Source of the DNA: Jimgerdemannia flammicorona
Taxonomy: Eukaryota
Length of the DNA: 36,529 nucleotides
NCBI GenBank assembly: GCA_003990765.1
Contig: RBNJ01000214.1
Location: 1-36,529 of the forward strand
Direction of reading: 5' to 3'
Part shown: one piece after another, positions 3,472-36,529 of the stretch
Position numbering within the stretch: the stretch's first letter is position 1
How the letters are laid out: the number at the start of each line of letters is the position of its first letter
Translations under genes and position numbers: made by a program
Notes under the pieces: generated by a model
What the model was told of the DNA's origin: nothing
The model's database searches: none
Seen by the model: the letters and a program-made list of their open reading frames with translations, nothing else

Positions 3472-3593
3472 TAAGTGTATAGGTCTTGCACAGGTGTGTA
3501 GGTCTTATACAGGTATATAGATCTTACACAGGTGTGTAGGTCTTATACAGGTATATAGATCTTGCACAGATGTGTAGGTCTTGTACAGATATA
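3472..3593. repeat. 19-bp tandem repeat (~6 copies, alternating two variants) in U3 of LTR A
   Basis: Units caggtgtgtaggtcttata / caggtatatagatcttaca start at 3472, 3491, 3510, 3529, 3548 and 3567. Confidence 0.9.
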
Positions 3594-3709
3594 CCTTATC
3601 TGATAGTCTGGCTATTTATACAGCTTTTCATAGCAATGGTTGCTGGTTGCTATATATTTATGTCATCTGGCTAAGTTATAATTTGGGTGGTACATTCTGA
3701 TTTGTCACA

Positions 3710-8700: not shown

Positions 8701-10095
8701 CTTTCTCTCTATATTCTTAGTAATTTAGTATAGAAATTTAAGGCTTAGTTCAAAACTGATAAGCATGGCTATCTAGATAAGAAAAATAATAAACAAATAA
8801 TATTTATTAACAGAATGGATCTGTGACTTAACTATTCTGATTTCCTAAATAATATTCTTAATATAATCAATAAAATCCAGATATTTATTACTATATAGTC
8901 AAGATGGAAAAAAATATAAATTATAGCCAATAAAGGATTATTTTATATAAGTGAAACAGGAATAATGCCATTACTACCTCCAGCTTATAATGAAGAGTTC
9001 TCTGATATTAGAGAATGAGTCTTGATAAAACAAAAAGCTGCTATTAGTACCAAACAAAATACCAAGTACCAAAAGTAATAGTAACTTCTAAAGAAAGCCA
9101 AACAGACTAACAAAGTTAACAAAATACTTTAATAAATTGATATCTCCCTTAGATGAGCTTAGTACTCTAAATGAGTCAATTTAATCCAGATTGGATTCAG
9201 ATTGGATTCAGATTGAATCCCATCTAGATCAACCATTGTTTTGATTTTCAAATTAAATAATTTAATGTTTATATCAATAACTCAATGAATAATTATCCAA
9301 TTTTAATAATCTTAGTGTCATTTGCAAGCCCTTAATAAGGCCTTTCTAATGATACCAAGAATATTAAAATCAAATTAGGTATTGCTGAGCTATTAAGAAA
9401 AATGTTCTTTTGAAGAAATTTTCAAAATTGATAAGTCAAATAATTTCCAAAATTAGCAAGTCAGACATTTTGCTTGATAACTCAGCAATGTATGATCCAA
9501 TTTCAATGTTCTTGATTTTATTAGAAAGGCCTTATTAAGGGCTTTCAAATGATACCAAGATAATCAAAAATTGGATGATTATTCATCAAGTTATTGATAT
9601 AAACATTTAATTGTTTAATTTGGAAATCAAAACAATAGTTGATTTAAATTGCTCTGAATGGAATTTGAATCTCATCTAAGTTGATCCCATTGGAGTTAAT
9701 TCAGATAGAATTTGAATCTGATCCAGATCAACTCATTTGGAGTACTAGATGAGCTCAAGATGTAGTTTCTGGACATAACTCAAAGTCAATAAACTTAACC
9801 AGAATATACTCTGAATTGTATAAATGTGCCACCAATGTTACCTCTAAGAACACTATTATAGAAAATCATCTATTTAGTAAAAATTGTAACATAATAATAA
9901 ATTCAGTACAACAAGACTGAGAAAGAACAAAAAATAGTAATCACCCTATTTGATCAAAATAGCACCACCTTATCTTACTAAGAGAAGAAGGCCAAAAGTG
10001 AAACAATGTAGTCAAAGAAATATATCAGATTTATGATATAACTTCTCACCTAATACTAAATCAGATCCACTATCTATAAGGAGGAAATAAATGAG
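8701..10095 (+). pseudogene. unidentified degraded reading frame split by the MITE
   Basis: A single frame is maintained on both sides of the MITE after removing one TSD (e.g. GLFYISETGIMPLLPPAYNEEFSD; 54 stop-free codons from 9756). Stops are compatible with C>T decay. Confidence 0.4.
9160..9747. mobile_element. hAT-type MITE with long inverted arms
   Basis: TIR tagtactctaaatgagt / actcatttggagtacta, perfect 8-bp TSD GATGAGCT (9152-9159, 9748-9755), internal ~250-bp inverted arms. A younger copy starts at 36373. Confidence 0.92.
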
Positions 10096-10588
10096 ATTTA
10101 ACTTAAATATAAAAAGATGAGATATATATATTTACTATTCAAAATATATCTGTAATAAATCTGTAAACTATACTATAAACACTACTATACTATAAATACT
10201 ACAAATAATAAATACCACAAATACTATATATAAAAATCTCAACTTATATTAATAAAGATTTGGTTTTAATAATAATCTATAAACTCTTATATTAAATATA
10301 ATTTATTATTAAATATATACTTCTAATGTTACTATATACTTCTTAAATAAAAACTAGTCACAATTGCAAGTAATGCTAAGTTTATACAACTGTATTTTCA
10401 GTCTATATACTTTGTTATTTAGTCTAACTATATGTTTACAAATTAAATATATATTTAAAATATTTCTTCTATAATACAATCTATTGTAACGGTGACCCCA
10501 GAATGATGACATCAGCACAGGAGACAGCCTTTCCTTGCAAGCCACCAGATCGAAGCACAAGAAGATCATACAGTATACAAGATGAGCA

Positions 10589-11330
10589 ATGATGACCAAC
10601 TGTGAGTCATTGTGACTACAGCACAAGCATCCTGAAGAATATAAAAGAAGGATCAAGGAACCGCAGTAGCAGCAACCAACAAGGATCACCATTGCCACCA
10701 AATGCCTTCAAATATGGCAGGAGTACGAAATAGGAAACCTCCTCTGCTGGGAGTTCCCAGAAGCCAGCACCCAAGAGCTACAAGATGCCACCCCCATGGA
10801 CCTACGTGAAACAAGGACAGCTAAGAAGATCCATCAGATCTTCAGGCATGCACCATAGTCATCCCCAACTTGGAGTATGTTAGAGTCTCAGACTTCAGAG
10901 ACCTGTCATCCCGCCGTATCAATGCACTAGAAGCCAGAGTAGCTACAGAAGTCCAGTCCACCATCACCCTCAACAGCGAAGAAGTAGAAGACTTCTGGCA
11001 CCCTATCCTCCAGGACAACCCAGACCAATTCCTGCAAGGATTGATCTCAGTATTCCAAGGCCCAAGCATCCGGGTTAGATCTCCCCAAGACTCCACATTT
11101 GTTCCCTATTTTGTGGAAGAGAACTTCATAGACTGGAGAGCTCCAGATCTCCTTGTTCCCGATTTTCCCGCCACTGCCAAACGTGATGACATCTTCGGTG
11201 ATGACGTCATCCCGCGTGACATCGACATACGCGAAGCACGCGAAAATGATGAATTCGCGGATCTCATCTCCTTCAGTGATGAGATGATGATGATGATGAA
11301 GCCCCCATGGTCCTGAACTTTCTGCTCTAA
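10589..11330 (+). pseudogene. U3-encoded ORF of unknown function, 5' LTR copy
   Basis: Contains ORF 10870-11316. Its private lesions (stop + 1-bp deletion ~10856-10861, frameshift in the GAT run) differ from those in the 3' copy. Confidence 0.65.
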
Positions 11331-11347
11331 GTTCTTTGTTACACTGA

Positions 11348-11474
11348 ATAATGCCAGCACCGGTATTCTCATGTAACACCAGATAATGCCAGCACTGGTA
11401 TTCTGAGGTGATGCGAAATCATTCCAGCACCGGCATTTTGATGTGATACTAAATAATGCCAGCCCTGGAACTCA
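11348..11474 (+). repeat. 35-bp tandem repeat x4 with dyad core, upstream of the LTR TATA box (second set 18343-18469)
   Basis: Units start at 11348, 11383, 11418 and 11453. The core AATGCCAG-CA-C(C/T)GG(T/C)ATT is an imperfect palindrome. Confidence 0.85.
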
Positions 11475-11777
11475 GTAGTTTTAGTTATTGGAATTTATAT
11501 TTAGCTTTATATCTTAGCAACCATTGAATTATATTTTGTATAAATACCCCTCTTATTTCCTCTGAAATAAAGTCAGTTCTGGTTCACTTACATACACTTC
11601 CTTGCAAGCAATCTAAGAGATAACAAGACAGTTAAAGATAAGAAGTTTGAGGACTATAAGACCTTGGGAAGGCACTCCAATAAGAACTTGCTTATAACAA
11701 CTTAAGTTAGTCTAAGAGATACACCTTGAAGAGAATCTGGCATATTTGAAGGACTCAGCGACCACTATGTGACAACT

Positions 11778-11795
11778 TGGTGCCCATTGGCTGGT
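11778..11795 (+). promoter_or_regulatory. primer-binding site of element D (tRNA identity unresolved)
   Basis: TGGTGCCCATTGGCTGGT lies 3 nt after the LTR. An identical sequence follows the 5' LTR of element C (20823). Confidence 0.75.
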
Positions 11796-11894
11796 GATTC
11801 AAGACGAATCCCTCACTTTCAAGCTGAAAAATGAACAACCCCCACAACAACTACCCTGACTACAAGAGTCACCCCTGCAAGAATTCAAGACAAG

Positions 11895-14800
11895 ATGGAA
11901 ATGCATCCCCCCACATTCTATGGATATACTACTGAAGAGTCAATCCTGACCTTCATTGAAGACTTTGAACAATTCGCCACCATACGAGCCCTTGGTGTGG
12001 ATGCTCAATTGGCCCTTCTACCAGTCAGCCTCAGAGGACCTGCCAGAGACAAGATCAATGCAGCCACCATTGCTGATGCTGGTGCAGCCAAACTTGTCAA
12101 CATGAAGACCTTCCTCAGAACAACATATTATACTGAAGAGATCAAGCAAGCTCTCAAGGATCAACTCAATACTATCTGCCAGGGACTTAGTGAAGATCCC
12201 AACTCATTCTATACCCGAATTTGCCACCAGATTATCTTGGCTGGCTATAATGACCACCTCAAGGAACAAATAGCGGATTCAACCTTCCTCAAAGGAGTTC
12301 ACCCTGAAATTGCCCTAGCAATCCGGTCTACCCCAGCTGCACTGACCCTTGATCAGAAAGTGGTCTTTGCACAGAGATATTGGACTACCAGACACTATGC
12401 CGAACACTCAATGGAGAAAATAACTGGCATCAAGATGGAGCCATCAAAGCCAACTAGTATCCTACCTGCTACAGTTGTGAACAGACAATCAACCACACCT
12501 ACCCCCAAGACAGCCAAAGCTGACCCAGTGGAAGAACTCGCCAAGCAGTTCGCCGAGATGACTGCACACCTTGGTGATGTTGTTAGAGAAGTCCGAAGCG
12601 CCAATAGGAGACCAGTACAAAGATTTGCAGCTGCTACAGAAGAATGCAATAACATCACATGCTTCAGATGTGGAGAAGAAGGCCACTATGCAAAGAATTG
12701 CATGACTGAAACGAGATGCAAAGCCCAACCAAGCAATGCTAGCAGAACCAGAGAACAAACCAATGCAGTAGTCATTGAGGAGATTGGTGACACTGATGAT
12801 GAAGAATACTACGAGGAGCTTGAATTCTACCCTGCTACTGAAGGTACCAGAACCCAGTCCAAGTCTTATGACAAGAAGAGCAACAGCAAGCCAGTTGGAA
12901 GACCAAAGAAGACCCCAGCTGTCACCATTCAAAGCAAGACCCAACCCAAGGAGATTGATCAAGACATAGAGTTAGATGAAGCTGCCCGCCAAATCATTGA
13001 AGGCACTACTCCAGTCTCAGGAGAAAGCGAAAGCAAGAAGGAACAGAAGCTGTGCAAGACCAAGATCCACCAGTATGACATCTACAAGGACCTCAAGGAG
13101 CAGAAGGTCAATGCCACTTTTGGACAGCTAGCTGAAGTCCCTGCCTTCAGACAGCAGTTGAGAGTAGGACTTGCAACTACTGCCAAGAATCAAGAGTACA
13201 AGATTGTGGAAGCTCACAATGTACAGGAAGAATCCGAGAACTCAGGTGAAGAATCTGAAGACCAGCGCAAGACATCAGCCTATACCCCCTGCCAGATCAA
13301 AGACTGTATCTTTGATGCCATCATTGATACTGGTGCTGGAGGATGCCTCATGAGCAAGAAGGCAATTGACCGCCTAGGTTGGGATATTGAAGAGTCCACC
13401 AAGATGGTCTATGTCACAGCAGACGGTACACGAGCTACCCCCCTTGGCAAAATCCGAGAAGTCCCCATCAAGATAGGAGGAGCTACCATTCCAGTAGACG
13501 TGATTGTTACAAGTGCCACCAACTATGACATCCTCATTGGCAACCAATGGCTTCACAAGGCCAAGGCCATCATTGATCTCAATGCCCAGAAGATGCAGAT
13601 CAACTACAGAGGAAGAAAGGTACAAGTCTCTATCAATGTCCACAAAGGAGTTCTACCAGACATGGAGGAAGGAGATGAAGAAGACACAGAGGTGTTCATG
13701 CACTCGGTGAACAAGAACAAGAGCAAGACACCCAAGCTCACAGATGAGCAGTGGTACAACAAGATCATCGATAGCTATGCCCCTCAAGGAAGATGCCCCC
13801 ATGGTACTAGAATGTACTGCTCCGAACACCTGAATGACTGCTAGTCCTGTATCAGTGAAGTCAGGAAAATCCGCCAACAGAAACATGAGCAAAAAGCCGC
13901 CGAAGCAAAAAGGAAAGCCAAAGAAGATGACCAGCCCCCAGAGCTTCAAGCTGACAGCGACGATGAGGAGGAACAAGAACCAGACATCACTCTCAAGGTC
14001 AAGAAGTTTCACCCCGAAGCCAAGATCCCAGAATACAAGACTGAAGGAGCCATAGGAATGGACCTTACCAGCATTCAAGATGCTACCCTCGAGCCACAGA
14101 CCACCACTCTACTTGGCACCAGAATTGGAGTCAAGTTACTAGAAAACCATGCCGGAATCATCAAGACCAGAAGCAGTCTAGCCAAAAGCAAAATCTCAGT
14201 TGAAGGAGGAGTAATTGACCCTGATTACACTGGCGAGATCTTTCTCATAGTCAGAAATCACAACCACACCACCCCCTTCGAAGTCAAGAAGCATGACAGG
14301 ATCAGCCAGATGCTGATCCACGAAATCAAGAAGCCCAAGATCATAGAAGCCATCGAACTCATCAAGACCAAGAGAGGAGAACAAGGCTTTGGATCTACTG
14401 GAAGAGGAGCCTATGCCACCACCAAGATTACCAAACTTGAGCACAAGAAAGACAAGGATCAGAACAAGCACACATATACCATTGGAGAAAACTTTCCCCT
14501 AGAGGAACAACTCCTCAAGATTCTGCACCAGAATGAAGGAGTACTTGCTACAGACTTTAGGAATATCCACAACCAAGAACCCAAGTACTACCACGAAGTT
14601 GATACCAGTGATACCAAGCCCATCTACCAGAAAGCCAGACCCATACCACCTGCCTACAGAGAGTGGCTGCGAGCTGAACTCAAGGAAATAGAGGAAGCCA
14701 GAATCATTAAGCAAGCTATCAGCCCCTGGGCCTCACCCATTGTCCTAGCCCCAAAGAAAGGAAGCAAGCCTGGAGAGTTTGCACCAAGACTCTGCATTGA

Positions 14801-15923
14801 CTACAGGAAGCTCAATGCCATTACCAAGAAGGATAGGCAGCCCTTGCTGAATATTCAAGAAATCCTTACCACTCTTGGAAGTGAAGCCAAATACTACACC
14901 ACCTTGGATCTGTTCTCAGGCTTTCATCAGATTGGTCTCACTCAAGATGCCAGTGAGAAATCAGCCTTCATTACACCTGATGCCACCTATATCTACCTGT
15001 GAATGCCATTTGGAATGTGCAATGCCCCAGCAAGTTTCCAGCGAATGATAAACAGAGTCTTCAGCAACGAGATTGGAAAATAGCTCTTTGTCTATGTTGA
15101 TGATATGATCATCTTCAGCAACACTGCACGGGAACATATCAATCACATACAGCTAGCCCTCAAGAGGCTCAAGGAGCATGGCCTCTACATCAAGCCCAAG
15201 AAATGCAAGTTTGCAGCTCAAGAAATCGCCTACCTAGGACACCTCATCAATCAGACCGGAATCCACACAGACCCCATGAAGATTGAGGCTGTTGCAGCCT
15301 ACCTGAGACCCAGAACAACCACAGAAGTCCACGCCTTCCTTGGACTAGCCAGCTACTACAGAAGATTCATCAAAGGATACTCTAATATTGCAGCACCTAT
15401 TTACGAGCTACTGAAGAAGGAGACCAAATTCGAATGGACCAAGGAGCGCCAAGAGACCTTCAATGAACTCAAGACCAGGTTGACTCAAGCACCTATCCTC
15501 AGAAGACCAGATTGGAACCTAGAATTCATCCTGCAGACAGATGTAAGCGCCATAGGACTTGGAGCAGTCCTAGCTCAGAAGAAAGATGGACATGAATATG
15601 TCATCTCCTATGCAAGCCAAGGTACCTACGGAGCAGAACAAAACTACGAGTCATGCAAGCTTGAATGCTTAGCAGTAGTTTGGGCAGTAGACAAGTTCCA
15701 CTACTACCTAGCTAGGAAACACTTCACCATTCAAACAGACCACTCTGCTCTTGCCTGGCTATTCCACACTCTGAACCCTAAAGGAATATATGCCAGGTGG
15801 ATCTACAGGCTGCAAGAGTATGACTGTACTGTCAAGCACCGCTCAGGAAAGACCAACACCAATGCCAATGCACTCTCAAGGACACCCCGAAATACTCCCA
15901 TCAAGACTATTCAACATGAATAA
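11895..15923 (+). pseudogene. gag-pol: single-frame gag-protease-dUTPase-RT-RNase H polyprotein with three premature stops
   Basis: ORFs 11895, 14058 and 15105 are in one frame, broken by TAG 13842, TGA 15000 and TAG 15081. Motifs: CFRCGEEGHYAKNC, IDTGA, RLCIDYRKLN, YVDD, TDVSAIGLGAVL, TDHSAL. The original start is probably ATG 11831 (+1 insertion in a C run). Confidence 0.95.
13992..14402 (+). CDS. dut: dUTPase domain between protease and RT (uninterrupted)
   Basis: All five motifs present: GMDL, RSSLA, GVIDPDYTGEI, DRISQM, RGEQGFGSTG. Confidence 0.93.
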
Positions 15924-17163
15924 GGAGCTATACTATGGATTAATCAGCTACCTTGGGCAGTGGAAGATGCCCAACCACCTCGAACCCTGGACAATCACCA
16001 TCATCAACCGGACTTGGAAACAGTTTGAATTAGGCAGCACTACACTCAGAAAAGGAGGAAAGCTAGTAATACCCGAACACAAGAAGTATCAAGTAATGAA
16101 GGAAGTACACGAGCAAGGACACTTAGGAGGAACCAACACATACGACAAGGCAAGAAGAACTATGTGGTGGCCCAAGATGGAAGAAGACCTGTGCCAATTT
16201 GTCAAAGGGTGTGACAAGTGCCAAAAACAGAAACAAGATCAGCAAGACCAGGCACCCGGGTCATCAAGAATTGAGCCTATCCCCTTCCACCACATCGCAA
16301 TAGATATCATTGGACCACTACCAGTAACACTATCAGGAAACCGCTATATTATAGTTATTGTAGACCTCTTCACCAAATGGATAGAGGCAGGAGCATTACA
16401 AGAAGCCAATGCCCTCTCTATAGCCGACTTCCTGCACCAAGAAATCATCTGCCACTACAAGACACCAAAGCAAATCACAACAGACTGTGGAACGGAATTT
16501 GTCAATGGATTCCACGAGATAATGTATCAGAAATACAAGATCCAGCACATCAAGACCACCGCGTACCACCCTCAAGGAAATGGACAGACAGAAAGAACCA
16601 ACAAGACCCTCAAGAACATCCTAGTGAAGATCTCAGAGACATATGAGAATTGGGATAACTATCTCCCAACCACCCTCTCTGTCCTACGAGACATACAGTC
16701 ACAGAGCACACATTTTACCCCAAGAGAGCTGCTCTTCGGAGAAGAAGATTCTGATGGAACCTCAGCCACAAATCTAGACCTAACTTGGAGACAGGTTGAT
16801 GCAGAAATCCAGAGACTACATCAAATCAGGAAGAAGGCTGAAGATTACATCACTAAGTCACAAGTGCTGACAAGGAAGAATGCAGAAAAGAATCACAAGG
16901 CCCTAGAACCCATCCGAATTGGAGAAAAGATTCTACTGTATTGAAATATGGTAGAAGCCTCTTGGTCACGAAAACTGGAGCCCAAATGGGAAGGACCCTT
17001 CTATATGCAAGATATCAAGGGAACTACCTTCTGGCTTAGAAAAATCTCAGGGACCATACTGCCTACCACAGTACATAGGAACAGACTCAAGAAGTACCAC
17101 GAACCTATACAAGAGAAGCAAAACGTGATGATCGCCCGTGAGGTTCTAGTCCGCGAATCGTAA
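15916..17163 (+). pseudogene. integrase (separate reading frame; one internal TGA at 16942)
   Basis: HHCC (HEQGHLG...CDKCQ), DDE core (IDIIGP, TDCGTEF, NGQTER) and GPF module (WEGPF). Confidence 0.93.
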
Positions 17164-17498
17164 CAGCATGTCCCGTGACCAGCAGGCTATCTGTCTGGAC
17201 CATTCTCTAAGGGATATGGCACTGGCAACTACTCATCCGTGAGACTTTCGATGTCAGAGGAGTTCAAACCGTCAACTGATTGGTCAAGATCAGAATCAGG
17301 CCCTTGCTCTATATGAAGGGAGCGACCCTTCACCATCACACCAAAATACAAAGGGAAGATGCCAGCCCATAAACACCACTTTTCGACCCCTTGCCAGAGG
17401 TTATGGGATCAGCAAATTTTTCAGGACTGGACCAATGAATAAGGATGCTCAGGAAGATTCTTATTCAAGAGGAAGATATAACGGTGACCCCAGAATGA
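17151..17498 (+). pseudogene. putative accessory reading frame between integrase and U3 (crosses the PPT)
   Basis: Frame RIVTACPVTSRLSVWTIL*GIWHWQLLIRETFDVRGVQTVN*LVKIRIRPLLYMKG...IRMLRKILIQEEDITVTPE has pol-like codon usage. Its four stops are all TAA/TGA, revertible to CAA/CGA. Confidence 0.45.
17467..17476 (+). promoter_or_regulatory. polypurine tract of element D
   Basis: AAGAGGAAGA immediately before the 3' LTR. Confidence 0.85.
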
Positions 17499-18769
17499 TG
17501 ACATCAGCACAGGAGACAGCCTTTCCTTGCAAGCCACCAGATCGAAGCACAAGAAGATCATACGGCATACAAGATGAGCAATGATGACCAACTGTGAGTC
17601 ATTGTGACCACAGCACAAGCATCCTGAAGAATATAAAAGAAGGATCAAGGAACCGTAGTAGTAGCAACCAACAAGGATCATCATTGCCACCGAATGCCTC
17701 CAAATGTGGCTGGAGTATGAAATAGGAAACCTCCTCTACCGGGAGTTCCCAGAAGCCAGCACCCAAGAGCTACAAGATGCCACCCCCATGGACCTACATG
17801 AAACAAGGACAGCTAAGAAGATCCATCAGATCTTCAGGCATGCACCATGGTCGATCCCCAACTTAGAGTATGTTAGAGTCTCAGACTTCAGAGACCTGTC
17901 ATCCCGCCATATCAATGCACTAGAAGCCAGGGTAGCTACAGAAGCCCAGTCCACCATCACTCAACAGCGAAGAAGTAGAAGACTTCTGGCACCCTATCCT
18001 CCAGGACAACCCAGACCAATTCCTGCAAGGATTGATCTCAGTATTCCAAGGCCCAAGCATCCGGGTTAGATCTCCCCAAGACCCCACATTTGTTCCCTAT
18101 TTTGTGGAAGAGAACCTCATAGACTGGAGAGCTCCAGATCTCCTTGTTCCTGATTTTCCTGCCACTGCTGAACGTGATGACGTCATCGGCGATGACGTCA
18201 TCCCGCGTGACATCGACATACGCGAAGCACGCGAAAACGATGAATTCGCAGATCTCATCTCCTTCAGTGATGATGATGATGATGATGATGATGAAGCCCC
18301 CATGGTCCTGAACTTTCTGCTCTAAGTTCTTTGTTACACTGAATAATGCCAGCACCGGTATTCTCATGTAATACCAGATAATGCCAGCACTGGTATTCTG
18401 AGGTAATGCGAAATCATTCCAGCACCGGCATTTTGATGTGACACTAAATAATGCCAGCCCTGGAACTCAGTAGTTTTAGTTATTGGAATTTATATTTAGC
18501 TTTATATCTTAGCAACCATTGAATTATATTTTGTATAAATACCCCTCTTATTTCCTCTGAAATAAAGTCAGTTCTGGTTCACTTACACACACTTCCTTGC
18601 AAGCAATCTAAGAGATAACAAGACAGTTAAAGATAAGAAGTTTGAGGACTATAAGACCTTGGGAAGGCACTCCAATAAGAACTTGCTTATAACAACTTGA
18701 GTTAGTCTAAGAGATATACCTTGAAGAGAATCTGGCATATTTGAAGGACTCAGTGACCACTACGTGACA
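17477..18769 (+). repeat. 3' LTR of element D
   Basis: TATAAC (TG>TA)...GTGACA, direct repeat of 10485-11774. Confidence 0.97.
17581..18325 (+). pseudogene. U3-encoded ORF of unknown function, 3' LTR copy (~250 aa consensus, acidic C-terminus)
   Basis: ORFs 17704-18069 and 18032-18325 join when a 2-bp deletion (~17960) is repaired from the 5' copy. Confidence 0.65.
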
Positions 18770-19619
18770 CTATATACTTATTTACTAAATATGAATAAAA
18801 AGAATATAAATTCAATCTACTTACTAAATTCTTTCTTACTGAATCATATTTCTCAAATAAGAGTTGTATGTGTACTGTATGAACAATTAAATCTATAGAT
18901 ATAACATTGAACTGCTCAGTCTGCATAGTGACAGCTATTCCTATCTCACAATTATGAGAGATCATATTTTTAGTACTAGAATGCTCAATATCTACTATAT
19001 TATATCACTCCAAGTATATAAGTCAATGAACTTAGCAATCTTACTTGATTTTGAAGAGAAGGTAAACTTGAGCAAAAGAATATTTGTCTATATCTTGTCT
19101 TATCTCAAACTGCTTGTCTATAAGATTATACAATACTACTCAGTCATATTATAGACTTCTATGGAACTGTTACTTATAGCAAATAAGTTGATAAAATATA
19201 GCTAAATCTAATTTTATATCTACATATAAAAGATTCATGAACTCCAATTAATAAAGTGGTAAAGATATTAATCTACAGAGATTAAGAAGAGATATTAGAA
19301 ATATCACAAAAAAAGTTTACCAGCTAACTTAGTATAAATAACTTACTATTGGATTTGAAAGTTTAGAAAGATTTTTTCTATTTACTTAATAATGATATCT
19401 ATTTCCAAATATAAACTGGAGATTATGGAAAAACATCTGAGTAGTAAGTTCAAGATTACATAGTCTAAACAATTTTAAAACTTCATTAATATAGAGTGTA
19501 CCTTCAGAGATACTAGTACTCAGGTTCAGTTATTAGTAAGCTTAAGATATCTGTAAGCTTACTATGTAATTGTAATATGATCAAGCTTGTCCTTAAGTAC
19601 TATTCAGCACTATACTAAC

Positions 19620-20436
19620 TTGATAACTTAGGAAAGAGAATCACATTTGTTTGTTCATCAATATAGTATCTTAACTTTCATACAATGTTAATATTAGTGT
19701 TATCTCTATATTAGTATTATCTGATATATCAAATATTCAAGTTGACTCAGAAATATGCTATAGAGAGTAGTGTTTTTCAAAGTTCAGTAAACTTGGTAAG
19801 ATCTCTATAAACTGCTCTTTTGGTTTATTGAATTGAGATAATAGCATATTTTAATCTGTAAATATTTTTTCAGTAATGAGGTATAGAAGTACTACTCAAT
19901 GAAAATTATGAGGTATTTGACAATACTAAGTGATTTGAAAATCCTTCTCATATATGAGAGTAATATTTTTTAAAAGATTTTTTTTTTTTATTAAAGAGTT
20001 CACAAATAGTTCATGAACTCACTGTAATATATATAATACTTATATACATCAGTTGTTAATATTCAGCTGTAGTTATTTAACTAAGATTTGAAATTCCAGT
20101 AGAGAATTTTTTAAGCTTAGAATATTAAGAAACAAGTTGAATACAAAGTTTAGCTCTAGTTTACCATATATATATCAAATGAACTCTTGATAAGATTAAG
20201 AGTTAGATTGATTTTTTACTTAATAAAGTATATTAGGCATAATTATTAAATAAATATTTATAAGAGATAGTTTCCATAGTATATTCTAGAGTTTGGTTAA
20301 CAGATGATGTAATTGTTAGTAAAAAAATATTTATTTAAAAATAAGCAAAATTAATATATATAGTTAGTCCCACAATCTATGCTCTTGAAGACTCTTTTCA
20401 GCTATTTTATATTTGTCTTTTGAATGATAAATCTGT
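19620..20436 (-). pseudogene. Plavaka-type transposase, C-terminal part (degraded)
   Basis: KLKKFSTGISNLS*ITTAEY*QLM (~20115-20050) and NFEKHYSL*HISEST*IFDISDNTN (~19785-19715) resemble Plavaka motifs (F..Gi..l.q.T..E; NfpK.H...H). Confidence 0.65.
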
Positions 20437-20819
20437 TGTGATGTATGATATGAAATAGAAATAGAAAATAGATATTTAATTATAGTACCTGAATCCAATT
20501 TCCAATTTAGTATAGTCCTTTACTATGGATACTGCATCTAAAACATTATCAGTGAAACTCTTGTTACTTTCATGAATTTCAAATAGGATTTCACATGAGA
20601 TTCTACCTGAGAATTTTACATGAAAAGACTTAATACTTAGCTATATATTTAGTAGCAGAATAAGCACACAAATCTGTATAAATAACTCAGTATTTTAGAG
20701 TAAATAAACCTCAGTCAGATTGAGTCAGTTCAATTCCAAAAATAAGTCTTCTTTATATATCCTTCTTCTCCATTTCAAAATCTTTCCAACTCAACAAGTT
20801 CTATGTCTGCTACATTATA
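20437..20819 (+). repeat. 5' LTR of element C
   Basis: TGTGATG...CATTATA, direct repeat of 28668-29048. TGTATAAAT and AATAAA present. Confidence 0.92.
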
Positions 20820-21776
20820 ACTTGGTGCCCATTGGCTGGTAATTCAAGATGAATCCTCACTTTTAAGCTAAAAAATAAACAACTGCCAGACTGCCATACA
20901 GACTGTCATATTGTACATGGTATTTATCTGCACCATCTACTGTTAATTACTTGTTCCAGTAGTCAGCCTCATTTCTGTGAATCTGTAATAGTTCTAGTTT
21001 CTTTAAGAGAAAGTGGCTAAATCTGGAAGTTCTAGTTGGCCTAATGTAGTTTGAAGAGATACTTAAAGGTTCAAGTGTTCTTGAAGGATTTCTAGAAGAA
21101 AATATTCTGAGCTTTATTCAGACAGAGAACAAAGATATTTATACATAATCTGAAAAGAAAGATCCAGAAGGATCTTGGAAAGAAAGAGAAATGCCAAGAA
21201 ATAGGTTCTTGGCAAAGCTGACTAATACTATTCTATAATATTCCAAAAGGTTCTATAACTAGCTATAATAATATACTTGGCACCAAGGAAAGACAAGAAT
21301 ATTCTAGTAGTGTCTGGGTGCTGAGAGAAGATTTCTAAGCAAGTAGAAGATAGTGGAATATAGTAGAATATTCAAGAAATGACAAGAAAAGACTAACTAA
21401 AAGATGCGAAAATATACTAAGACTAAATATGACTGTGAAATTGTTACATCTCTCTCTCCTTAAGAACCAATGTTCTCATTGAGTTTTTAGGTAATACAAG
21501 ACTAGATATACTTAACCAAAATTTCTCAAACTTGTATCAGTACATTGGTGGGAATTGGCCATCCTCATATAGAGTAGAGGGCCTATTACTAGACTAATCA
21601 ACTGAGAGAGATTCAAACCCAGCTAGTAGCTTCATTTTGGTAGGCTTCTTATTCATTAAATGTTCTGCTAGTTCCAGGGTCCCAAAGTAAACTTCCAATA
21701 TATAAAGTACTGGTCTTTGCTATAGGTTGTCAATAATCCAAGAAAGTCACTACAGAGATTGGGCAATGTATTTTAC

Positions 21777-21926
21777 CTCGAAGTCTTGAACTAGATCTTG
21801 AGAGTTCTTAAGGTTGACCAGTGGTTCTCAGGTAGCATCATATTCAGGATAACCCATCCACTTGACTAGGTATTTGGGACAGTGGTAGTGGATTCGTTTG
21901 TCAAGAATTTTCTCAGCTTTATACTC
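21777..21926 (-). pseudogene. chromodomain
   Basis: EYKAEKILDKRIHYHCPKYLVKWMGYPEYDAT*EPLVNLKNSQDLVQDFE. Confidence 0.92.
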
Positions 21927-24900
21927 GATATAGTCTTCAATAATCACAGGGGCAGAAGGCTTAGAAATTCAACCAGGGTAGAGCAGTAACTGGTTCTAGA
22001 TCTTAAGGTGTAATATATGAAAGATCAGGTGTACTCTTATGATTTCAGGTAGCTTGAGGTGGTAGGAGGATACAGAGACTTGTTCAGTGATCTTGAAAGA
22101 TCTAATATACTTGGGTTGGAACTTGTTTGAAGGGTGGTTGACTTGAGATTATATCTTAAGGTTCTCAGTAGACAGTAGGACTTAGTCTCTAATAGTATAA
22201 GTAACATCATAGTGTTTCTTATCAGCATACTTGGCTTGATACTATTGAGCCTTCTGGAGGTTCATGGTAGCATTCTTGAAAGAGAATAGACTTACAGGGG
22301 TCTCAGGATCTTGACTGTGGAGTAATCAGAAAGAGAAAAGACTAGTAGATGATTTGACAGCATTGTTGTATACAAACTCCATATAAGTCAGATAGTGGTC
22401 CTAATTATCTTGCTCATAAGAAATATAGTTTCTAAGCATTTGTTCTAGGGTTCTGTTCATACACTCAGTTTGTCCATCAGTTTGTGGGTGAAAGGCAGTA
22501 GACATAGCCAATTTGATTCCCAGGGTCTTAAAGAGAGTTTGCCAGAAGTGACTGGTGAACTTGGGGTCATAATTACTGATAATTACTTATGGTAGGCCAT
22601 AGTAATAGAAGATGAACTTAAAGAAGATTCTTGCAATACATATCAAGTATAGTAGCATTGGTAGTGGTTGGTTTAGCAACCATAGTCTTGGTCAGGCAGT
22701 CAATGAATATGATAATAGTATTTGCACCAGATTGAGTTCATGATAGTTGAGTTACAAAGTCCATAGTGATTTGCTCAAATGTCTTGATAGGAATTGGTAG
22801 TGGTTATAGCAAACCAGCAGGTACTTGGTTGGTAGACTTGTTGCACTGACATAGATCACAGCTGGCAACATAGTTCTTGATTTCCTTGACTATGTTTGGC
22901 CAATAGTAGCAATATTGGATGTTCTTGACAGTCTTCTCAATTCCCAGATGATCAGCAAGAGGGGAGTCATGGTGTTCTTATAAAACCTTATAGTGTAGGT
23001 TCATGTTTTCAGATAGGTAGACTTGATCTTGATGATAGATCAGATTGTTCTCAACAATATATATATCCTTGAACTTATTCAAGAAAACTCTAGTAGCAAC
23101 TATATCTTCTTTGTAAGCTTGCTTGATTTGGTCTAGGAATTCTGATGCCAAGGTAATCTGCATGATTGTGGTGAGGTCTGGGCATCTTGATAAGACATCT
23201 GATACTATAAGTATCTTGCCAGGCTTGTAGATAATCATTGAGTTGAAGGTTTGAAGCTTGAGGCTCTACTTGGCTTATAGATACGTATGACAGGGTAGGT
23301 TGGGTGTTGATATACTTGAGAGATTGATGATCAGTAATGACATCAAACTCAACACCTTCTAAATAGTATTGCCAGTGGTCTAGTGCATATATTATTGCCA
23401 GTAGTTCTTTTTCATGAGTAGCTAGCTTTTGTTCAGCTGGGGCTAGCTTGCAGGACTCAAAAGCAATAGGGTGATGTCCTTTGCCATCATCTTGTAATAA
23501 GACTGCTCTAATGGCAAAATTTGATACATTAGTGATAATTATAAATTTTAGGCCTTGATCTGCATTATTCAGAACTGGAGTATGGGTCAGGTAGTTCTTG
23601 AGTTCTTAAAAGGCTTGTTGACAGAAGAGGTCCCAGGTTAGGGTACATAGTGGTCTGAGTGCAGGGCCTTCCTCATGAGGTTAGTCAGTGGCTTGGAATA
23701 TCAGAGAAGTTTCTGACAAAGCAGCAGTAGTAGCCAGCTAGACCAAGGAAGGATCAGAGTTCTGTGAGGTTCAATAGAATGGGCTATTCTTCAATTGCTT
23801 CTATCTTGTGTGGGTCTACTTGAATTCCTTATGCAGAGACAATGTGGCCAAGGTATTTGACTTGTTCTTTGAAGAATTCACACTTCTTGAGCTTAGTATA
23901 GAGCTTGTGTTTTCACAGAATCTCCAAGACTATTTGAATGTATTTGAGATATTCTTCTTTAGTTGTACTAAAGATCAGGATGTCATCAAGATATACCAAC
24001 AGGAAAATAAATAGTTGGTCCTTGAATATCTTGTTCATCAGAGTCTGGAATATGGCAGATGCATTTATGAGACCAAATGCTAAGACCAGGAATTTGTAGA
24101 GTCTAAAGGGGGTCATGAATGCAGTCTTGGAAATGTCTTCTGGTTTGATTTGAATCTAGTGGTATCCTGATATAAGGTCTAACTTGGTGAAGTACTTGGC
24201 ATTCTTGAGAGCATTGAAGATTTGATCAATCAAGGGTAGTAGATAGCAGTTCTTGACAGTAAGTTTGTTGAGTACATGATAGTCTATACACATTCACAGA
24301 GTACTATCCTTCTTCTTGATTAATAAGACTGGTGAGCCATAACGCTATATGGCTCCTCATACAAGTAGTTCTTCTAGTTTCTTCTTGACTGCTTCAATTT
24401 TGAGTGGCAACATACAGTATATATGTTTCTTGGGTGGTATAGCTCCTGGGGTCAGTTCGATTTCATGATCAACTTCTCATATAGATGGTAGACCTGATAG
24501 CTTGTCTGGAAAGACATTCTTGAATTATTCTAGTAGTAACTTAATGCTTTCATTGACTAATAGTCTCTTGTCTTGTTTCTTGGGATAGACCATTATAATA
24601 AAGATATGCATTGCTTTCTTGAGTACTCTCTTGTACTATAGCTAATAGTATTGCAATCTGGGTCTTGCTTGTGGTCTTGTCTGTCTTGATAGTGATATTG
24701 GCTCTATCTTGAAGTAGGGTGACTTCATTCTTGTACCAATCAATATCTGGGTTGTATTTTGTAAGCCAGAGTTTTCCTAATATCAGAGCATGATCTCCTA
24801 GTAGTGCAATCTCAAAGTCTACTTGTTCCCAATATTTCTGGATCTTGATGGGTATTTTGGTGGCAATTGACTCAATGGGGTGCAGAGTACTATCTGCAGT

Positions 24901-25080
24901 GACTATACTATTGTTCTTGAGTACAGGCTTGGTAAGGATCTTGAGGCTTTTGATGAGATTCTGATTGATGAAGTTTCCTGCAGCTCTGCTGTCTATGAGT
25001 ACTTGAACTTCTTTTCCTTTGACTAGGCCTTTGAAAATGATCATATCTTGAGCTCAATTTTCACTAAGACTTGCTGCTTG

Positions 25081-25491
25081 ATCAGTGCTGCCAAAATCTT
25101 TTTAATCTTGTTTAATTTCAGGGAGTTCTTGGACTTCTGTAATCTTGAGTTGACTGGCTTTTTCTAGGATCATTTGTATAACTCAGTCTCCTTTCTTGAC
25201 TATGTAGTCTTGATCCTTCTGATTGATAAGTAGAACTTGAACTTGTCCTCAAAAGTCTGAGTCAATGATACCAGTGCCTATGTCTAAATGATGTTTGATA
25301 CTGAGTTCTGATTATGGTGCAATTCTGGTATAATGTCCTTCAGGACATTGAACTGCAATTCCAGTAGGCACCAGAGTTCAGCCCTTGGCTGGAATAGTGA
25401 CTTGTTTTACTGAGTGTAGGTCAAGACCTATGGCTCCTTCTGTTTAATATTGAGGGGTCTGGGCCTTTAGATGAAGCTTCTTGACCTTGAG
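25081..25491 (-). pseudogene. dut: dUTPase domain between gag and protease in E
   Basis: LKVKKLHLKAQTPQY*TEGAIGLDL...VPTGIAV...RIAP*SELS...GIIDSDF*GQVQVLLIN...KGD*VIQM...FGST (frameshifted). Confidence 0.9.
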
Positions 25492-27022
25492 CTCAGGTTG
25501 ACTGGTAGTGGGATTGACAGATATATCCTTGGACAATATGGTGACTGGTCTTGAGGGTTTGCTGTTCTTCTTAGGACATTTAGTTGCAATATGTCCTGTT
25601 TGGTGACAAAAAAAACAGGCTCTGGATTTCTTTAGATAGTCCTTTTTTTCAGAGTTGAGCTTGGCATTCTTTTTGTTCATAGTGTCTAGGTCTATTAATA
25701 TCAGGCCAACTGTTCTTGGTTGGTTCTTGTGGTGGTTCTTGAAGTGGTTTTTCTTGTGGTGTTCTGGTTCAAAGTAGTTACTAAAGGTGATGACATCAAA
25801 CCTATCAGCAATTCTCATGACTTCATCAAGGTTTTTGGGCTCTTCTAGCTTGACCTTGACTCATGTGTTTCTCTTCAAGCCTCAGACATAGTGGTCTATC
25901 TTTTTATCCTCAGATATTGCTGGTAGCTCAAGTAGGATTGACAGGAATTGTATATTATAGCTTTATATAGACTAAAGTTGCTTGATGTTTGCTAGCTTGT
26001 CTCTAGCTAGTTTGGTGGCATTAGCAGGCTTGAACTGCTTGTGAAGGGCTCTCTTGAAGACTTCCCAGTCTCTGATTTGTATATATGAGTATACAGAGAT
26101 AACTATGATATAATTGTACTAATAGATGACTGTATTTTCTCAGAGAAGTGTGGTAGCAAATTGGACTTGCATGTCATCTTCCATTCTTGTGAGCTTGAAG
26201 TATTGGTCCAACTGAAAGGTCCATGTATCTGTAGATAGTCCTCCTCAATAGCTGTCAAAGGTATCTGGTTGAGTGGCTTGAAACTGACTAGTGCTATAGT
26301 GGAATGTGATATACTTACAGTTTGTGTTTTCTGCTATTCTAGTTATACTTGAAGTTCTTGGATTTGGTGGACCATAGTATTGATCATGTCCTCTATACTG
26401 AGTTGCTGTCCTCCTGCTTCTTCTGTAGCAGAGGGGTCTAGCTGGTAGACTGACTCTTCATAGCTCATTTCGGATTTATGTGACTATTTGTGACTGGTTT
26501 CCAAATTCATATGAGGTTTCTTAATAAGGCAAGATATATTGATACTGCTGCTACCAAGTGTAATGGTTCTAGTTTCTTTAAGAGGAAATGGCTAAATCTG
26601 AGAGTTCTAATTGGCCTAAAGTAGCTTGAAGAGATACTTAAAGGTTCAAGTGATCTTAAAGGATTTCTGGGAGAAAATATTCTGAGCTTTATTTAGGCAG
26701 AGAATAAGGATATTTATATATAATCTGAAAGAAAGATCCAGAAGGATCTTGGAAAGAAAGAGAAATGCCAAGAAATAGGTTCTCAGTAAAGCTGACTAAT
26801 ACTATTCTATAATGTTCCAAAAGGTTCTATGACTAGCTAAGACATGATACTTGGTGCCAAGGAAAGACAAGAATATTCTAGTAGTATCTGGGTACTGAGA
26901 GAAGGTTTCTAAGCAAGTAGAAGGTAGTAGAACATAGTAGAATGTTCAAGAAATGATAAGAAAAGACTAACTAAAAGATGCAAAAATGTACTAAGACTAA
27001 ATATGACTGTAAAATTATTACA

Positions 27023-28550
27023 GAACTATTGGTATTAAACAATAGATACTTTGCAAAAGACTGCATCATTGAGTTAATAGCCAGATCACTTCTTAGTTTA
27101 AGAGACAATGTTACAAGAATTAATTACTGAAAAATTCCAAATGAACTACTATACCAAACAGACTTCTGTCACCCACCGCTTTTAAAGATATAAACCTCCT
27201 AAATTTGAAGATACTGTTTTGTCTCTATGCCATCTGCTGTTAATTGCTTGTTCTAGTTATCAGCCTTATTTCTATAAACTATTAGTATTAAATAATAGAT
27301 GCTCTGTAAAGGACTGCATTGTTGAGTTAATAGCCAGATCACTCCTTAGTTCAAGGGAAAATATTACAAGAATTAATCATTAAAAAATGCCATATGAATC
27401 ACCATGCCAAATAGACTGCTATTATCCAACTTTTGAAGATATGACCTATTAACCACACTTGATAAGTCTGGAAGCCATCTCATAACGTATGATTTGCTGC
27501 TACCTGACTTTTGAAGATATAACCTATTAACTACACTTAATGAGTCTGGAAGCCATTCTGCAACATATAATTTGCCACCTGACTTTTGAAGATATGACCC
27601 ATTCTGTAATATATGATTTGCTGCCACCCAACTTTTGAAGATATAAACCTCTTGAATTTGAAGATACTGTTTCATCTCTATGCCATCTGCTGTTAATTGG
27701 TTGTTCTGATTGTCAGTCTTATTTCTGTGAACTATTGATATTGAACAATAGATGCTCTATAAAGGACTGCATCATTGAGTTAATAGCCAAGTCACTCTTT
27801 AGTTCAAGAGACAATATTATAAGAATTAATTGCTAAAAAATATCAAACAAACCACCATATCAAATACTATCTGACTTTTGATGACATATGAACTGCCTGA
27901 GTGAAGAATATTACTCAACATATGAATGGACCATCATAGAGAATTAAAAGACATCATATATGAACTGCCTAAGTGAAGAATGCTGTCTGACCTTTGAAGA
28001 TACTGTCACCCACCTGACTTTTAAAAATACTGTTGTCTGACTTTTGACAATATATGAACAGAATGGACCATTCAGAAGAATTAAAATGATATCATTTATA
28101 AACTATCCAAGTGAAGAATACTGCCTGACATAAGAATACTGCCTAACTTTTGATAACATACAAACTGCCTGAGTGAAGAATACTGCTCAATATATAAATA
28201 AACCACTCTGAAGAATTAAAAGATATCACCTGAGTTAATTATTTGAAGAACACCACCTGCCACAAACAAACCACCTGAGATAACATGTAAATAGACCACT
28301 ATACAACATATGAATAGACTACTACAGAGAATTAAAAGATGCCATACAAACTGTCATCCAACTTTTGATAACATATAAATGGAACAGACTACCCTGGAGA
28401 ATTTGAAGATAAGCTGTCACCCAATTTTTGAAGACCCCATCACCTAAACTGCCACCTAAACTATTATCTGATTTTTGAAGACCCTGTCACCCAAAACTGC
28501 TGCCTGAATTAATTATTTGAAGACTTTTGAAACCTTGAATAACATTTTAA
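27023..28550. repeat. mosaic repeat array forming the interior of element C
   Basis: Three copies of a ~190-bp unit (first split by E; ~27225; ~27680), ~75-bp units at 27420-27650, aactgcctgagtgaagaata units, and over a dozen (c/t)(a/g)acttttgaaga motifs. Confidence 0.85.
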
Positions 28551-28667
28551 CAATTGCCTGGATATATCATAAATATGTCTATATAGGGGAAACAAATGTA
28601 TAAACATTATAATGTAAGAATTTGAATAGGTATTTTTGTGTCAAAAATAACCTATTCAGGGGGAAGA

Positions 28668-29048
28668 TGTGATGTATGGTATGAAATTGAAATAGGAAAT
28701 AGACATTTGATCATAGTACCTGAATCTAATTTCCAATTTAGTATAGTCCTTTACTGTGGATACTGCATCTAAAACATTATCAGTGAAACTCTTATTACTT
28801 TTATAAATTTTAGATAGGATTTCACATGAGATTCTACCTGAGACTTTTACATGAAAAGACTTAATACTTAGCTACATATTTAGTAGTAGAATTAGCACAA
28901 AATCTGTATAAATAACTCAATATTTTAGAGTAAATAAACCTCAGTCAGATCAAGTCAGTTTAATTCCAAAATAAGTCTTTTTTATATACCCTTTCTCTCT
29001 ATTTCAAAATCCTTCCAACTCACCAAGTTCCACATCTACTATATTATA
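28668..29048 (+). repeat. 3' LTR of element C
   Basis: Direct repeat of 20437-20819, preceded by the PPT and followed by TSD CTGT. Confidence 0.92.
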
Positions 29049-30770
29049 CTGTATATTTACAACTACTCTCTATATCTTAGAAACTGTTTTCAGAGAATAT
29101 ATCTTATCAAGGTATGAAAATTGCAAATAAGAGGCCATACATTTTGGGCAGATTTAATTTATATTAATTAGGCAGATCAAATATACTTCTGAATAATTGA
29201 CCATAAAGGACATAACTACTAGATAGCAATCATGAAGTTTGTTATCTGGTCTATATATATATAATAATACTACTACAAAATATATTTGTGATTAGCTATC
29301 AAATAAAATTTTTATCTAAATAATTTTGTAATTACAAATATTATCTTTTTTCTGCTACAGATAGTCTATAAAGTACTCATGATATATATCTATGATATAG
29401 AACTGTTTTCACTTTATAAAAGAAGTATTTTTTGGTCTCTTTAGGAGTTTCTTTAATAATTGGAAAATATACAATTACTGGGAATATATTTTATAAGTAT
29501 ATTCACTGAATATAGTTAGAGAGATTATTAATAGAAATATATAGTAGATACATTTTGGTTCATCTAAGCAAATCACAATATATTTGATCAATCTCAAGTA
29601 ATACTAGAATTACTATTGTACTAAGTGAGAGTTTCTCCTATAGTTTGGAAAAAGAATTATAGTTTATGAACAGTGAGTATACTGACTGATTATCTGTGAA
29701 CTTATTATTTTATCTATATTTACTACTAAAAATTATTCCAATATATCTCAGAGTACTTTTATATATTATCTATAGTATAGTATTTCTCTACTTTAAATTT
29801 CATATTGTTCTTGAATAAAGCATTTGACATCAGCTTATATAGAACAGCAAATAGATCTCAATAAAATAATACATATTTACCAGTTCAAGTTTCAGATATA
29901 TGAGTAATATATATTAAACTTTATAATTGAAGAGCTAATTTGAAAAAGAGAATTACTAAATATTTATTGATTTAACAGAAACATTAACTATTTAATTATA
30001 TACTACTCTATTTTTGGCTACTATATCTAAAAGTTTTATTATCTCTCTTGAGTTTGTGAACTGGAGCTACTCATTCATCATTGAAATTTTTCTATCTACA
30101 AATGTATTAAGAAGTTTATCTGCAATATTTCAGAATATATTTCTACTTTGAAGTAATAGATTCATGAGCCAAATTTCTTCCAAGAATATTAAGGATTATT
30201 TGCATCAGTTAGAGGTATCCATCTAAGTTTAGAAATAAATATATTATGCTGTATAAGTACTTTCTTACTATTGTTAATCTGACCATCAGTTAGTTCATAA
30301 ATAATATAATCCTTGCTGAACTCTAATATAGTAGATAGACTTCTCTGATCTTGAATTAAATTATCATTCTCTTTAAATAATTGTTTTTTCTCTTAAATTG
30401 AATTATTACTTTTGCTAAATAATAAACTTTCTTAATCTTAAAGATAGACTATTACTGCTGATATTATTTTGAATTATATATATATACTTAGCATGATTAT
30501 CTGAAATCTTCCAAGTTCATTTACATAGATTGCTCAAACTTGAAATATGTATAGAATTTAAGGTTAACTTATGAACTGTAGGTAAATTTATAGACAATAT
30601 TAAAGTTACTAAAATCTTGACAAACTGGAAATTCAAGGATAGACTTATCATTCTGATATTATATAAGTATATCATGTATTTTGCAGATATATCAAGTCAA
30701 TTCTGAGGCAGATTTGTACTTTAGGTTGTAATATGAGTAAGAAAGTTTTATATTAGTATTAGGTTTGAAG
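29049..30770 (-). pseudogene. Plavaka-type transposase, N-terminal/core part with degenerate C2H2 finger, probably intron-containing
   Basis: YVLFY*DLFAVLYKLMSNALFKNNMKF...KYSEIYWNNF** (~29875-29720); DQIYCDLL..MYLLYISINNLS; LYHRYIS; RPDNKLHDCYLVVMSFMVNYSE..CPKC. Zinc-finger remnant SYSYYNLKYKSASELT*YICKIH (30745-30674). Confidence 0.65.
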
Positions 30771-36372: not shown

Positions 36373-36529
36373 TAGTGCTCCTAACGAGTCAATTTAATCC
36401 GGATTGGATTCGGATTGATTCGGATTGAATCCCATCTGGATCAACTCGGATGGGATTCGAATCAACCATTGTTTTGATTTCCAAATTAGACAATTAAATG
36501 TTTACATCAATAACTTGATGAATAATCAT
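36373..36529. mobile_element. young copy (left end) of the hAT-type MITE, inserted in the LINE RT
   Basis: tagtgctcctaacgagtcaatttaatccggattggattcgg aligns with 9160 onward and retains CpGs that the older copy has lost. Confidence 0.9.

What the first reader, a model, noticed from the sequence alone, without database searches (positions are those of the whole stretch)
20437..29048. Non-coding LTR element that borrows D's replication signals but has different LTRs
Seen: C 20820-20883 matches D 11775-11839 (PBS, leader and probable gag start; 5 transitions and 1 indel by eye). The PPT context tattcagggggaaga resembles tattcaagaggaaga, the pre-PPT hairpin is shared, and both have 4-bp TSDs (CTGT vs CTAT) whereas E has 5 bp. 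The 380-bp LTRs show no evident homology to D's 1.29-kb LTRs, lack the U3 ORF, and the interior has no gag/pol. Established: LARD/TRIM elements are mobilised in trans. Inference: a parasite-helper pair that defines the minimal cis signals, with LTR replacement.
Basis: partly seen in the sequence, partly recalled or inferred. Interest (0 to 1): 0.75.

Follow-up and report, generated by a model that had tools for sequence, protein, structure and literature searches.

The report
Gene-less Gypsy retrotransposon with inherited signals
This is a decayed 2.6-kb gene-less jumping element, with an unrelated 6-kb retrotransposon inserted into it, whose terminal repeats and copying signals match a protein-coding relative of its neighbour, so it likely inherited them by descent rather than borrowing them, which makes it an ordinary kind of genomic hitch-hiker.

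Summary
The anatomy holds: C has 383/381-bp LTRs, a CTGT target duplication, and D's PBS-leader, pre-PPT hairpin and PPT. Two corrections: 6,039 of the 8,612 bases are nested element E, so C is 2,568 bp; and the shared leader contains no gag start.

The 'borrowed signals, LTR replacement' reading is not supported. A scan for the PBS found one contig, L001, a gag-PR-dUTPase-RT-RNaseH-IN element 70% identical to D, with the same leader, hairpin and PPT, and ~455-bp LTRs homologous to C's (z 7-8; 210 background windows at most 3.0; D's LTR at most 3.1). The signals are clade-wide and do not single out D.

C is likely a non-autonomous derivative of a short-LTR sister family, moved in trans by enzymes of the D clade. 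Which family helped is open, and no second copy with its own TSD was obtained. L001 is a relative, not C's direct parent. New member of a known kind; low interest.

The parts
20433..20436 (+). Left target-site duplication of C (CTGT)
   Evidence: identical to 29049-29052
20437..20819 (+). C 5' LTR, 383 bp; TATA box at LTR position 241, AATAAA 26 bases further on; homologous to the LTR of coding element L001
20820..20883 (+). PBS (20823-20839) and conserved non-coding leader, shared with D and L001; no gag start
20884..20983 (+). Start of C's repeat-built interior; 20918-20981 is a copy of the unit that recurs at 27215 and 27668
   Evidence: family D7
20984..27022 (-). Nested element E: decayed Ty3/gypsy, LTRs 20984-21448 and 26559-27022, imperfect 5-bp TSD GAATC/GAACT; not part of C
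27028..28623 (+). Rest of C's interior: dispersed and tandem repeats (spacings 253, 453, 78, 49), no coding homology, not more folded than shuffles
28624..28657 (+). Pre-PPT hairpin; base stem GAATAGG/CCTATTC as in L001's 3' end, GAATAAG/CTTATTC in D
28658..28667 (+). Polypurine tract
28668..29048 (+). C 3' LTR, 381 bp
29049..29052 (+). Right target-site duplication of C (CTGT)
10485..18769 (+). Neighbouring element D: Ty3/gypsy, gag-PR-dUTPase-RT-RNaseH-IN broken by stops and frameshifts, LTRs 10485-11774 and 17477-18769, TSD CTAT; candidate helper clade
11775..11839 (+). D's PBS-leader; 97% identical to L001 over its first 60 bases, the highest of 95 interior windows (next best 87%)

Best explanation
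C is a 2.57-kb non-coding LTR element that likely descends from a short-LTR coding sister family of D, kept that family's LTR, PBS-leader, hairpin and PPT while losing its genes, and was likely copied in trans by enzymes of the D clade. Shown: the anatomy, the absence of coding remnants, the LTR homology to L001, and clade-wide sharing of the signals. Inferred: transcription from the LTR TATA box, packaging by a helper's Gag, tRNA priming at the PBS, plus-strand priming at the PPT, and integration with a 4-bp TSD; this follows the standard LTR retrotransposon cycle and was not tested. E then inserted into C in the opposite orientation, and both decayed by C-to-T and G-to-A change. D's 1.29-kb ORF-bearing LTR is likely the derived, enlarged form. 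The helper is unidentified: D or a short-LTR sister.
For: L001 matches D over 5,448 columns at 70% and encodes zf-CCHC, protease, dUTPase, RT, RNase H and integrase. C vs L001 by blastn: 46 nt at 89% (TATA-polyA core, E 1e-10), 132 nt at 71% (hairpin-PPT-LTR start, E 3e-12), 84 nt at 86% (LTR end-leader, E 6e-21). Global LTR alignment z 8.0 and 8.2, 0 of 200 shuffles; controls E vs L001 0.3, D vs C -0.4. Composition-matched z 7.1 against a maximum of 3.0 in 210 background windows, 3.1 in 14 D-LTR windows and 1.3 in 20 L001 interior windows. TATA-to-AATAAA spacing 26 in C and L001, 27 in D. All 5 leader substitutions of C against D are G>A or C>T, and L001 has D's base at each. In run X1 one 233-bp contig spans C's interior, PPT and LTR start with 12 differences; 9 of the 11 listed are toward G/C, and the 3 inside the LTR all equal L001's base. 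X1 also shows 3 joints that skip 459, 1124 and 165 bases of the interior repeats, which suggests further variants. Empty target sites of C and D match at 9 of 10 bases; 106 of 400,000 random flank pairs reach this.
Against: L001 is a single contig from another sample; its two LTR copies differ (79% over 128 nt) and it begins with a second hairpin-PPT, so it may be a tandem or a chimeric assembly. C and L001 LTRs agree in only 231 of 362 and 238 of 359 aligned columns, so L001 is not the direct parent. C's interior repeats match neither L001 nor D (best score reached by 1 of 60 shuffles), so their origin is unexplained. No second C copy with its own TSD was obtained. On raw score alone one AT-rich background window reached 171 against L001's 177.5; the separation depends on composition matching. 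The target-site window was chosen after looking, and wider windows are weaker (10 of 14, 977 of 400,000; 13 of 24, 6,263 of 400,000). L001's LTR also resembles D's LTR ends (z 3.6). X1 is a soil metagenome, so its contigs need not come from one genome.
Confidence: 0.65

Rival explanations
1. C is a one-off relic: an autonomous short-LTR element with a long repeat-rich 3' UTR inserted here and later lost gag-pol by deletion; it never moved as a non-coding unit.
For: No independent insertion with its own TSD was found. In X1, summed depth over C-specific bins (2-6) is close to that over flank bins (about 2), against 510-650 over D's coding region; the tool warns that this is no copy number.
Against: No coding remnant at either junction. 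L001 has a third ORF, not repeats, between integrase and PPT. A less decayed X1 contig and three interior joints suggest several related copies.
Confidence: 0.17
2. One reading: C took D's PBS-leader and PPT by recombination, joined them to foreign LTRs, and depends specifically on D.
For: Leader 60 of 66 identical to D. Both have 4-bp TSDs and similar empty sites. D's family is abundant in X1. C shares one leader transversion state with D against L001. Such pairs are published (PMC10886601).
Against: C's LTR is homologous to that of a D-clade coding element. C shares another leader transversion state with L001 against D, so the leader does not choose. The hairpin stem and the LTR termini are L001-like. 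This D copy is about three times younger than C (K2P 0.030 vs 0.094).
Confidence: 0.13
3. C and E moved together as one 8.6-kb LARD-sized unit, with antisense E carried as cargo.
For: LTR divergences are indistinguishable (K2P 0.094 for C, 0.096 for E); an antisense insert would not be expected to end C's transcript (inference).
Against: E has its own, imperfect, TSD inside one of C's repeat units. Insertion soon after C's arrival explains the ages. No second C+E copy was seen.
Confidence: 0.05

Closest known systems
[quoted passage not shown]
   Same: LTRs, PBS, PPT and TSD without coding sequence; interior with short duplications; moderate (50-70%) LTR similarity to an autonomous family is that paper's class ii (12 families).
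   Different: Probably fungal host; dUTPase-bearing Ty3/gypsy partner clade; 4-bp TSD; only one full copy examined here.
Helenus LTR-1_PTrit with Copia-9_PGr in rust fungi; SMART with FRetro64 (Kojima 2024, PMC10886601; abstract, passages and sections 3.6 and 4.2 read)
   Same: A non-coding LTR element shares the 5' and 3' ends of the internal region with a coding element whose LTRs differ, which is the layout of C against D; the paper also concludes that a close relative is the likelier helper.
   Different: C has no tRNA gene found in its LTR, uses a Gypsy rather than a Copia partner, has a 4-bp rather than 5-bp TSD, and its LTR does have a coding homolog (L001).
dUTPase-bearing fungal Ty3/gypsy elements such as PosPlaTy3-5 (PMC2864245, passages read)
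   Same: D and L001 carry dUTPase between protease and RT.
   Different: No chromodomain hit in D or L001; relationship to those elements not tested by a tree.
Soybean LTR swapping (Du et al. 2010) and Dasheng/RIRE2 (Jiang et al. 2002): titles seen only in a reference list, content recalled
   Same: Autonomous and non-autonomous partners, with LTR exchange as a described route.
   Different: No LTR exchange needs to be invoked for C.

Membership tests
Non-autonomous LTR retrotransposon (broad sense) | Two LTRs with TG...CA-type ends flanked by a TSD | tested here: met
   91% identical LTRs, TG start, ends decayed to TA, TSD CTGT/CTGT
Non-autonomous LTR retrotransposon (broad sense) | PBS after the 5' LTR and PPT before the 3' LTR | tested here: met
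   the primer tRNA was not identified
Non-autonomous LTR retrotransposon (broad sense) | No coding capacity in its own interior | tested here: met
   26-60 stops per frame in six frames of 27023-28667; no tblastn or blastn match to coding regions of the window or L001. The interior frames were not scanned against Pfam.
Non-autonomous LTR retrotransposon (broad sense) | Several gene-less copies with independent TSDs | tested here: inconclusive
   No host genome held. X1: 42 contigs on 27030-29400, 3 interior joints, no independent LTR-flank junction among the rows shown
LARD | Length above 4 kb | tested here: not met
   2,568 bp without E; threshold
LARD | Structured internal domain (criterion recalled) | tested here: not met
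   27028-28667 folds at -264 kcal/mol against -300 +/- 10 for 12 shuffles; only the pre-PPT hairpin is significant
TRIM (strict) | Length below 1-1.5 kb | tested here: not met
   2,568 bp; falls in the unnamed 1.5-4 kb range
Helenus / Cassandra / Ajax (TRIMp3) | tRNA- or 5S-derived sequence in the LTR | tested here: inconclusive
   ARAGORN finds no tRNA in the window, but a decayed copy could be missed; Rfam was run only on D's leader region. The LTR has a TATA box and AATAAA.
D/L001 clade of dUTPase Ty3/gypsy | Clade PBS-leader, pre-PPT hairpin and PPT | tested here: met
D/L001 clade of dUTPase Ty3/gypsy | LTR homologous to that of a coding member | tested here: met
   z 7-8 to L001
D/L001 clade of dUTPase Ty3/gypsy | Placement by RT phylogeny | not testable with these tools
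   C has no RT
LTR-swapped parasite of D | LTR foreign to the helper's clade | tested here: not met
LTR-swapped parasite of D | Co-packaging or mobilisation by D proteins | not testable with these tools
   needs an experiment

The most novel reading that the evidence does not exclude
The roughly 65-nt PBS-leader is a clade-wide priming and packaging signal: it is 97% identical between D and L001, more than any coding window (at most 87%). With the covarying pre-PPT hairpin it lets C be carried by D, a sister family whose LTR has diverged beyond alignment. C would then be a natural minimal vector that shows cross-family mobilisation and a sequence-specific 4-bp-TSD integrase in an early-diverging fungus.
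Probability: 0.25. Interest if true: 0.4.

Novelty: new member of a known kind. Interest (0 to 1): 0.2.

Why it matters
It matters little as it stands: gene-less LTR derivatives are common, and the shared-interior, different-LTR layout is published for rust fungi and plants. The useful residue is comparative. Three elements (C, D, L001) bracket a short leader and a hairpin that are conserved far beyond the surrounding sequence, which makes them testable candidates for priming and packaging signals. How non-autonomous elements stay tied to a helper is described as unknown in both papers read. The case also shows that 'no LTR homology to the neighbour' is not evidence of LTR swapping until sister families have been sampled.

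Tried and rejected
Host genome: none held. Viral contigs: 0 matches for the PBS and the LTR core; 0 loci by protein. Genome contigs: 0. The D gag-PR homolog search gave nothing; the RT-RNaseH search gave 928 hits, the close ones unnamed, so the host was not placed by me. Sequencing runs: one listed, X1, share 0.07; no RNA holder listed. X1 summed depth is reported but is not a copy number; uncovered bins, including C's right junction, are not used as evidence. Idea that the leader is a tRNA or other small-RNA copy: no Rfam match to E 10, no fold signal on the minus strand (z 0.0). Self-priming: no complement of 7 or more PBS bases in any of the four LTRs. Idea that L001's third ORF is D's U3 ORF: not detected by pairwise alignment (best case 49 of 300 shuffles reach the score). 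Idea that C keeps the end of that ORF: the last codons look alike but are not significant (23 of 300). C interior vs A's or D's LTR: chance level. Atlas searches gave no family for either accessory ORF. Look-ups of earlier findings by sequence returned nothing for C or for the D control, so they say nothing on copy number. Du et al. 2010 is not held. Four literature searches listed no paper on this clade; they were word searches and Repbase was not searchable, so this is no proof of absence. No supplements were read; they could list related families.

Full report
Anatomy. Self-comparison of the window shows three LTR pairs here: D (10485-11774 / 17477-18769), C (20437-20819 / 28668-29048) and E (20984-21448 / 26559-27022). 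C's LTRs agree in 348 of 383 columns with 29 transitions and 4 transversions. TSDs are CTGT/CTGT for C, CTAT/CTAT for D and GAATC/GAACT for E. E lies on the minus strand inside C and keeps zinc-knuckle, protease and RNase H remnants. C without E is 2,568 bp, with an interior of 1,804 bp built from repeats. In six frames that interior has no match to coding regions of the window or of L001. D encodes gag-PR-dUTPase-RT-RNaseH-IN, broken by stops and frameshifts. K2P LTR divergences are C 0.094, E 0.096 and D 0.030. CpG observed/expected is 0.0-0.05 in C, E and the flanks and 0.3 in D, consistent with methylation-driven decay (inference). No host genome was available. Earlier scan notes call the host an Endogonales fungus; I did not verify this, and the close protein relatives are unnamed.

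What C shares with D. The PBS-leader matches in 60 of 66 bases, with 5 transitions and 1 indel, all five being G>A or C>T in C. The PPTs differ at 2 positions, and both pre-PPT hairpins fold better than all 200 shuffles. The shared stretch holds no gag start: D's ATG at 11831 opens a short out-of-frame ORF, is ACG in L001, and the in-frame start that aligns with L001's gag lies at 11895. The LTRs are unrelated in bulk apart from a weak TATA-AATAAA core (2 and 3 of 200 shuffles). The empty target sites match at 9 of 10 bases around the TSD (106 of 400,000 random pairs), more weakly in wider windows (977, 806 and 6,263 of 400,000). These are two sites and the window was picked after looking, so this is a hint of a common integrase preference only.

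The decisive comparison. One exact scan of metagenome contigs for the 21-base PBS gave one locus, L001. It aligns to D over 5,448 columns at 70% and encodes the same domains, plus a 154-aa ORF of no known family between integrase and the hairpin. Its LTR is about 455 bp and matches C's: blastn finds the TATA-polyA core (46 nt, 89%), the hairpin-PPT-LTR start (132 nt, 71%) and the LTR end-leader (84 nt, 86%). Global alignment gives z 8.0 and 8.2 with 0 of 200 shuffles, and z 8.4 for the partial second LTR; E vs L001 gives 0.3, D vs L001 1.3, D vs C -0.4. Because one AT-rich background window came close in raw score (171 vs 177.5; 192 windows), I repeated the test with composition-matched z-scores: L001 7.1; maximum 3.0 of 210 background windows, 3.1 of 14 D-LTR windows, 3.4 of 17 A-LTR windows, 1.3 of 20 L001 interior windows. 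C's LTR ends reduce to L001's by transitions only, whereas D differs by other changes at each end. In the leader, C sides with D at one transversion and with L001 at another. The first 60 leader bases are 97% identical between D and L001, the highest of 95 interior windows (next 87%). The hairpin's base stem covaries across C, D and both L001 copies. So leader, hairpin and PPT mark the clade, not D. Limits: L001 is from another sample, agrees with C in about two thirds of aligned LTR columns, has two unlike LTR copies and may be a tandem or a chimera; both of its LTR junctions nevertheless join a C-like LTR to D-clade coding sequence. Its RT-RNaseH cluster has 20 members.

Is C a family? One run, X1 (soil metagenome, contigs), holds part of the region. 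Summed depth is about 510-650 over D's coding region, 36-120 over E's interior, 2-6 over C-specific bins and about 2 over flanks; the tool states that this is no copy number. On 27030-29400, 42 contigs were laid (1, 4, 16 and 21 at 99+, 95-99, 90-95 and under 90% identity), with joints skipping 459, 1124 and 165 bases. One 233-bp contig crosses interior, hairpin, PPT and LTR start; 9 of its 11 listed differences are toward G/C, and the 3 inside the LTR equal L001's bases. This suggests a younger or collapsed set of C-type copies. Loose ends at the LTR core include one that resembles L001's LTR by eye (6 of 40 rows shown), hinting at L001-like families in that sample. No independent TSD was recovered, so family status is likely but not shown.

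Mechanism. Most likely (0.65), a short-LTR D-clade element lost its genes, kept its LTR and cis signals, gained or expanded a repeat interior, and was copied in trans by a D-clade helper before E inserted. The steps of transcription, packaging, priming and integration are inferred from the standard cycle. Rivals are a one-off deletion relic (0.17), a true LTR swap onto D's signals (0.13) and joint movement of C with E (0.05). That D's long LTR is the derived state is inferred from the short LTRs of C and L001, which share D's ends and TATA core; I could not link D's U3 ORF to L001's third ORF.

Known kinds. The sugar beet survey (passages and section 21) defines TRIMs as under 1-1.5 kb and LARDs as over 4 kb, notes that 1.5-4 kb has no name, and lists 12 families with 50-70% LTR similarity to an autonomous element. 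dUTPase between PR and RT is known in fungal Gypsy elements (PMC2864245, passages). PMC3701649 was seen only for two references and PMC7011435 for one unhelpful passage. An earlier scan note reports a similar 2-kb non-coding element beside a dUTPase-Gypsy elsewhere in this genome, and others report families with the extra ORF before the PPT; these are unchecked AI notes.

Verdict. Observation partly confirmed; interpretation partly supported; new member of a known kind; interest 0.2.

Noticed in passing
window 2271-3709, minus strand: The 1.44-kb LTR of another element (A) shares the TATA-polyA core with C (3461-3357, 68%; score 28 against a shuffle maximum of 24) and has similar termini, but a different PBS; its gag is distantly related to L001's.
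   Followed up: partly
window 25222-25491, minus strand: E also has a dUTPase remnant, apparently between the zinc knuckle and the protease, whereas D and L001 carry it between protease and RT.
   Followed up: no
window 10825-11316 and 17665-18325: ORF in D's LTR (U3); no Pfam hit, atlas scores at most 0.85, not detectably similar to L001's third ORF.
   Followed up: partly
L001 227-688, minus strand: 154-aa third ORF between integrase and the pre-PPT hairpin, whose stop codon lies at the start of the hairpin's 5' arm; no Pfam family.
   Followed up: partly
L001 6403-6479: The contig starts with a second ORF-end, hairpin and PPT in front of the 5' LTR, and the two LTR copies are only about 79% alike: a tandem of sister elements or a chimeric assembly.
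   Followed up: no
window 9160-9649 and 36373-36529: Fold-back element (80% inverted repeat over about 420 bases) with a second copy cut by the window end; looks like a MITE.
   Followed up: no
window 3978-5012, minus strand: A further decayed RT-RNaseH remnant, about 33% identical to D-clade proteins; also 102-479 resembles 7489-7831 at 76%.
   Followed up: no
window 20430-20436 / 29049-29059 and 10478-10484 / 18770-18780: The empty target sites of C and D resemble each other and a TATA-box-like sequence, a possible integrase preference.
   Followed up: partly
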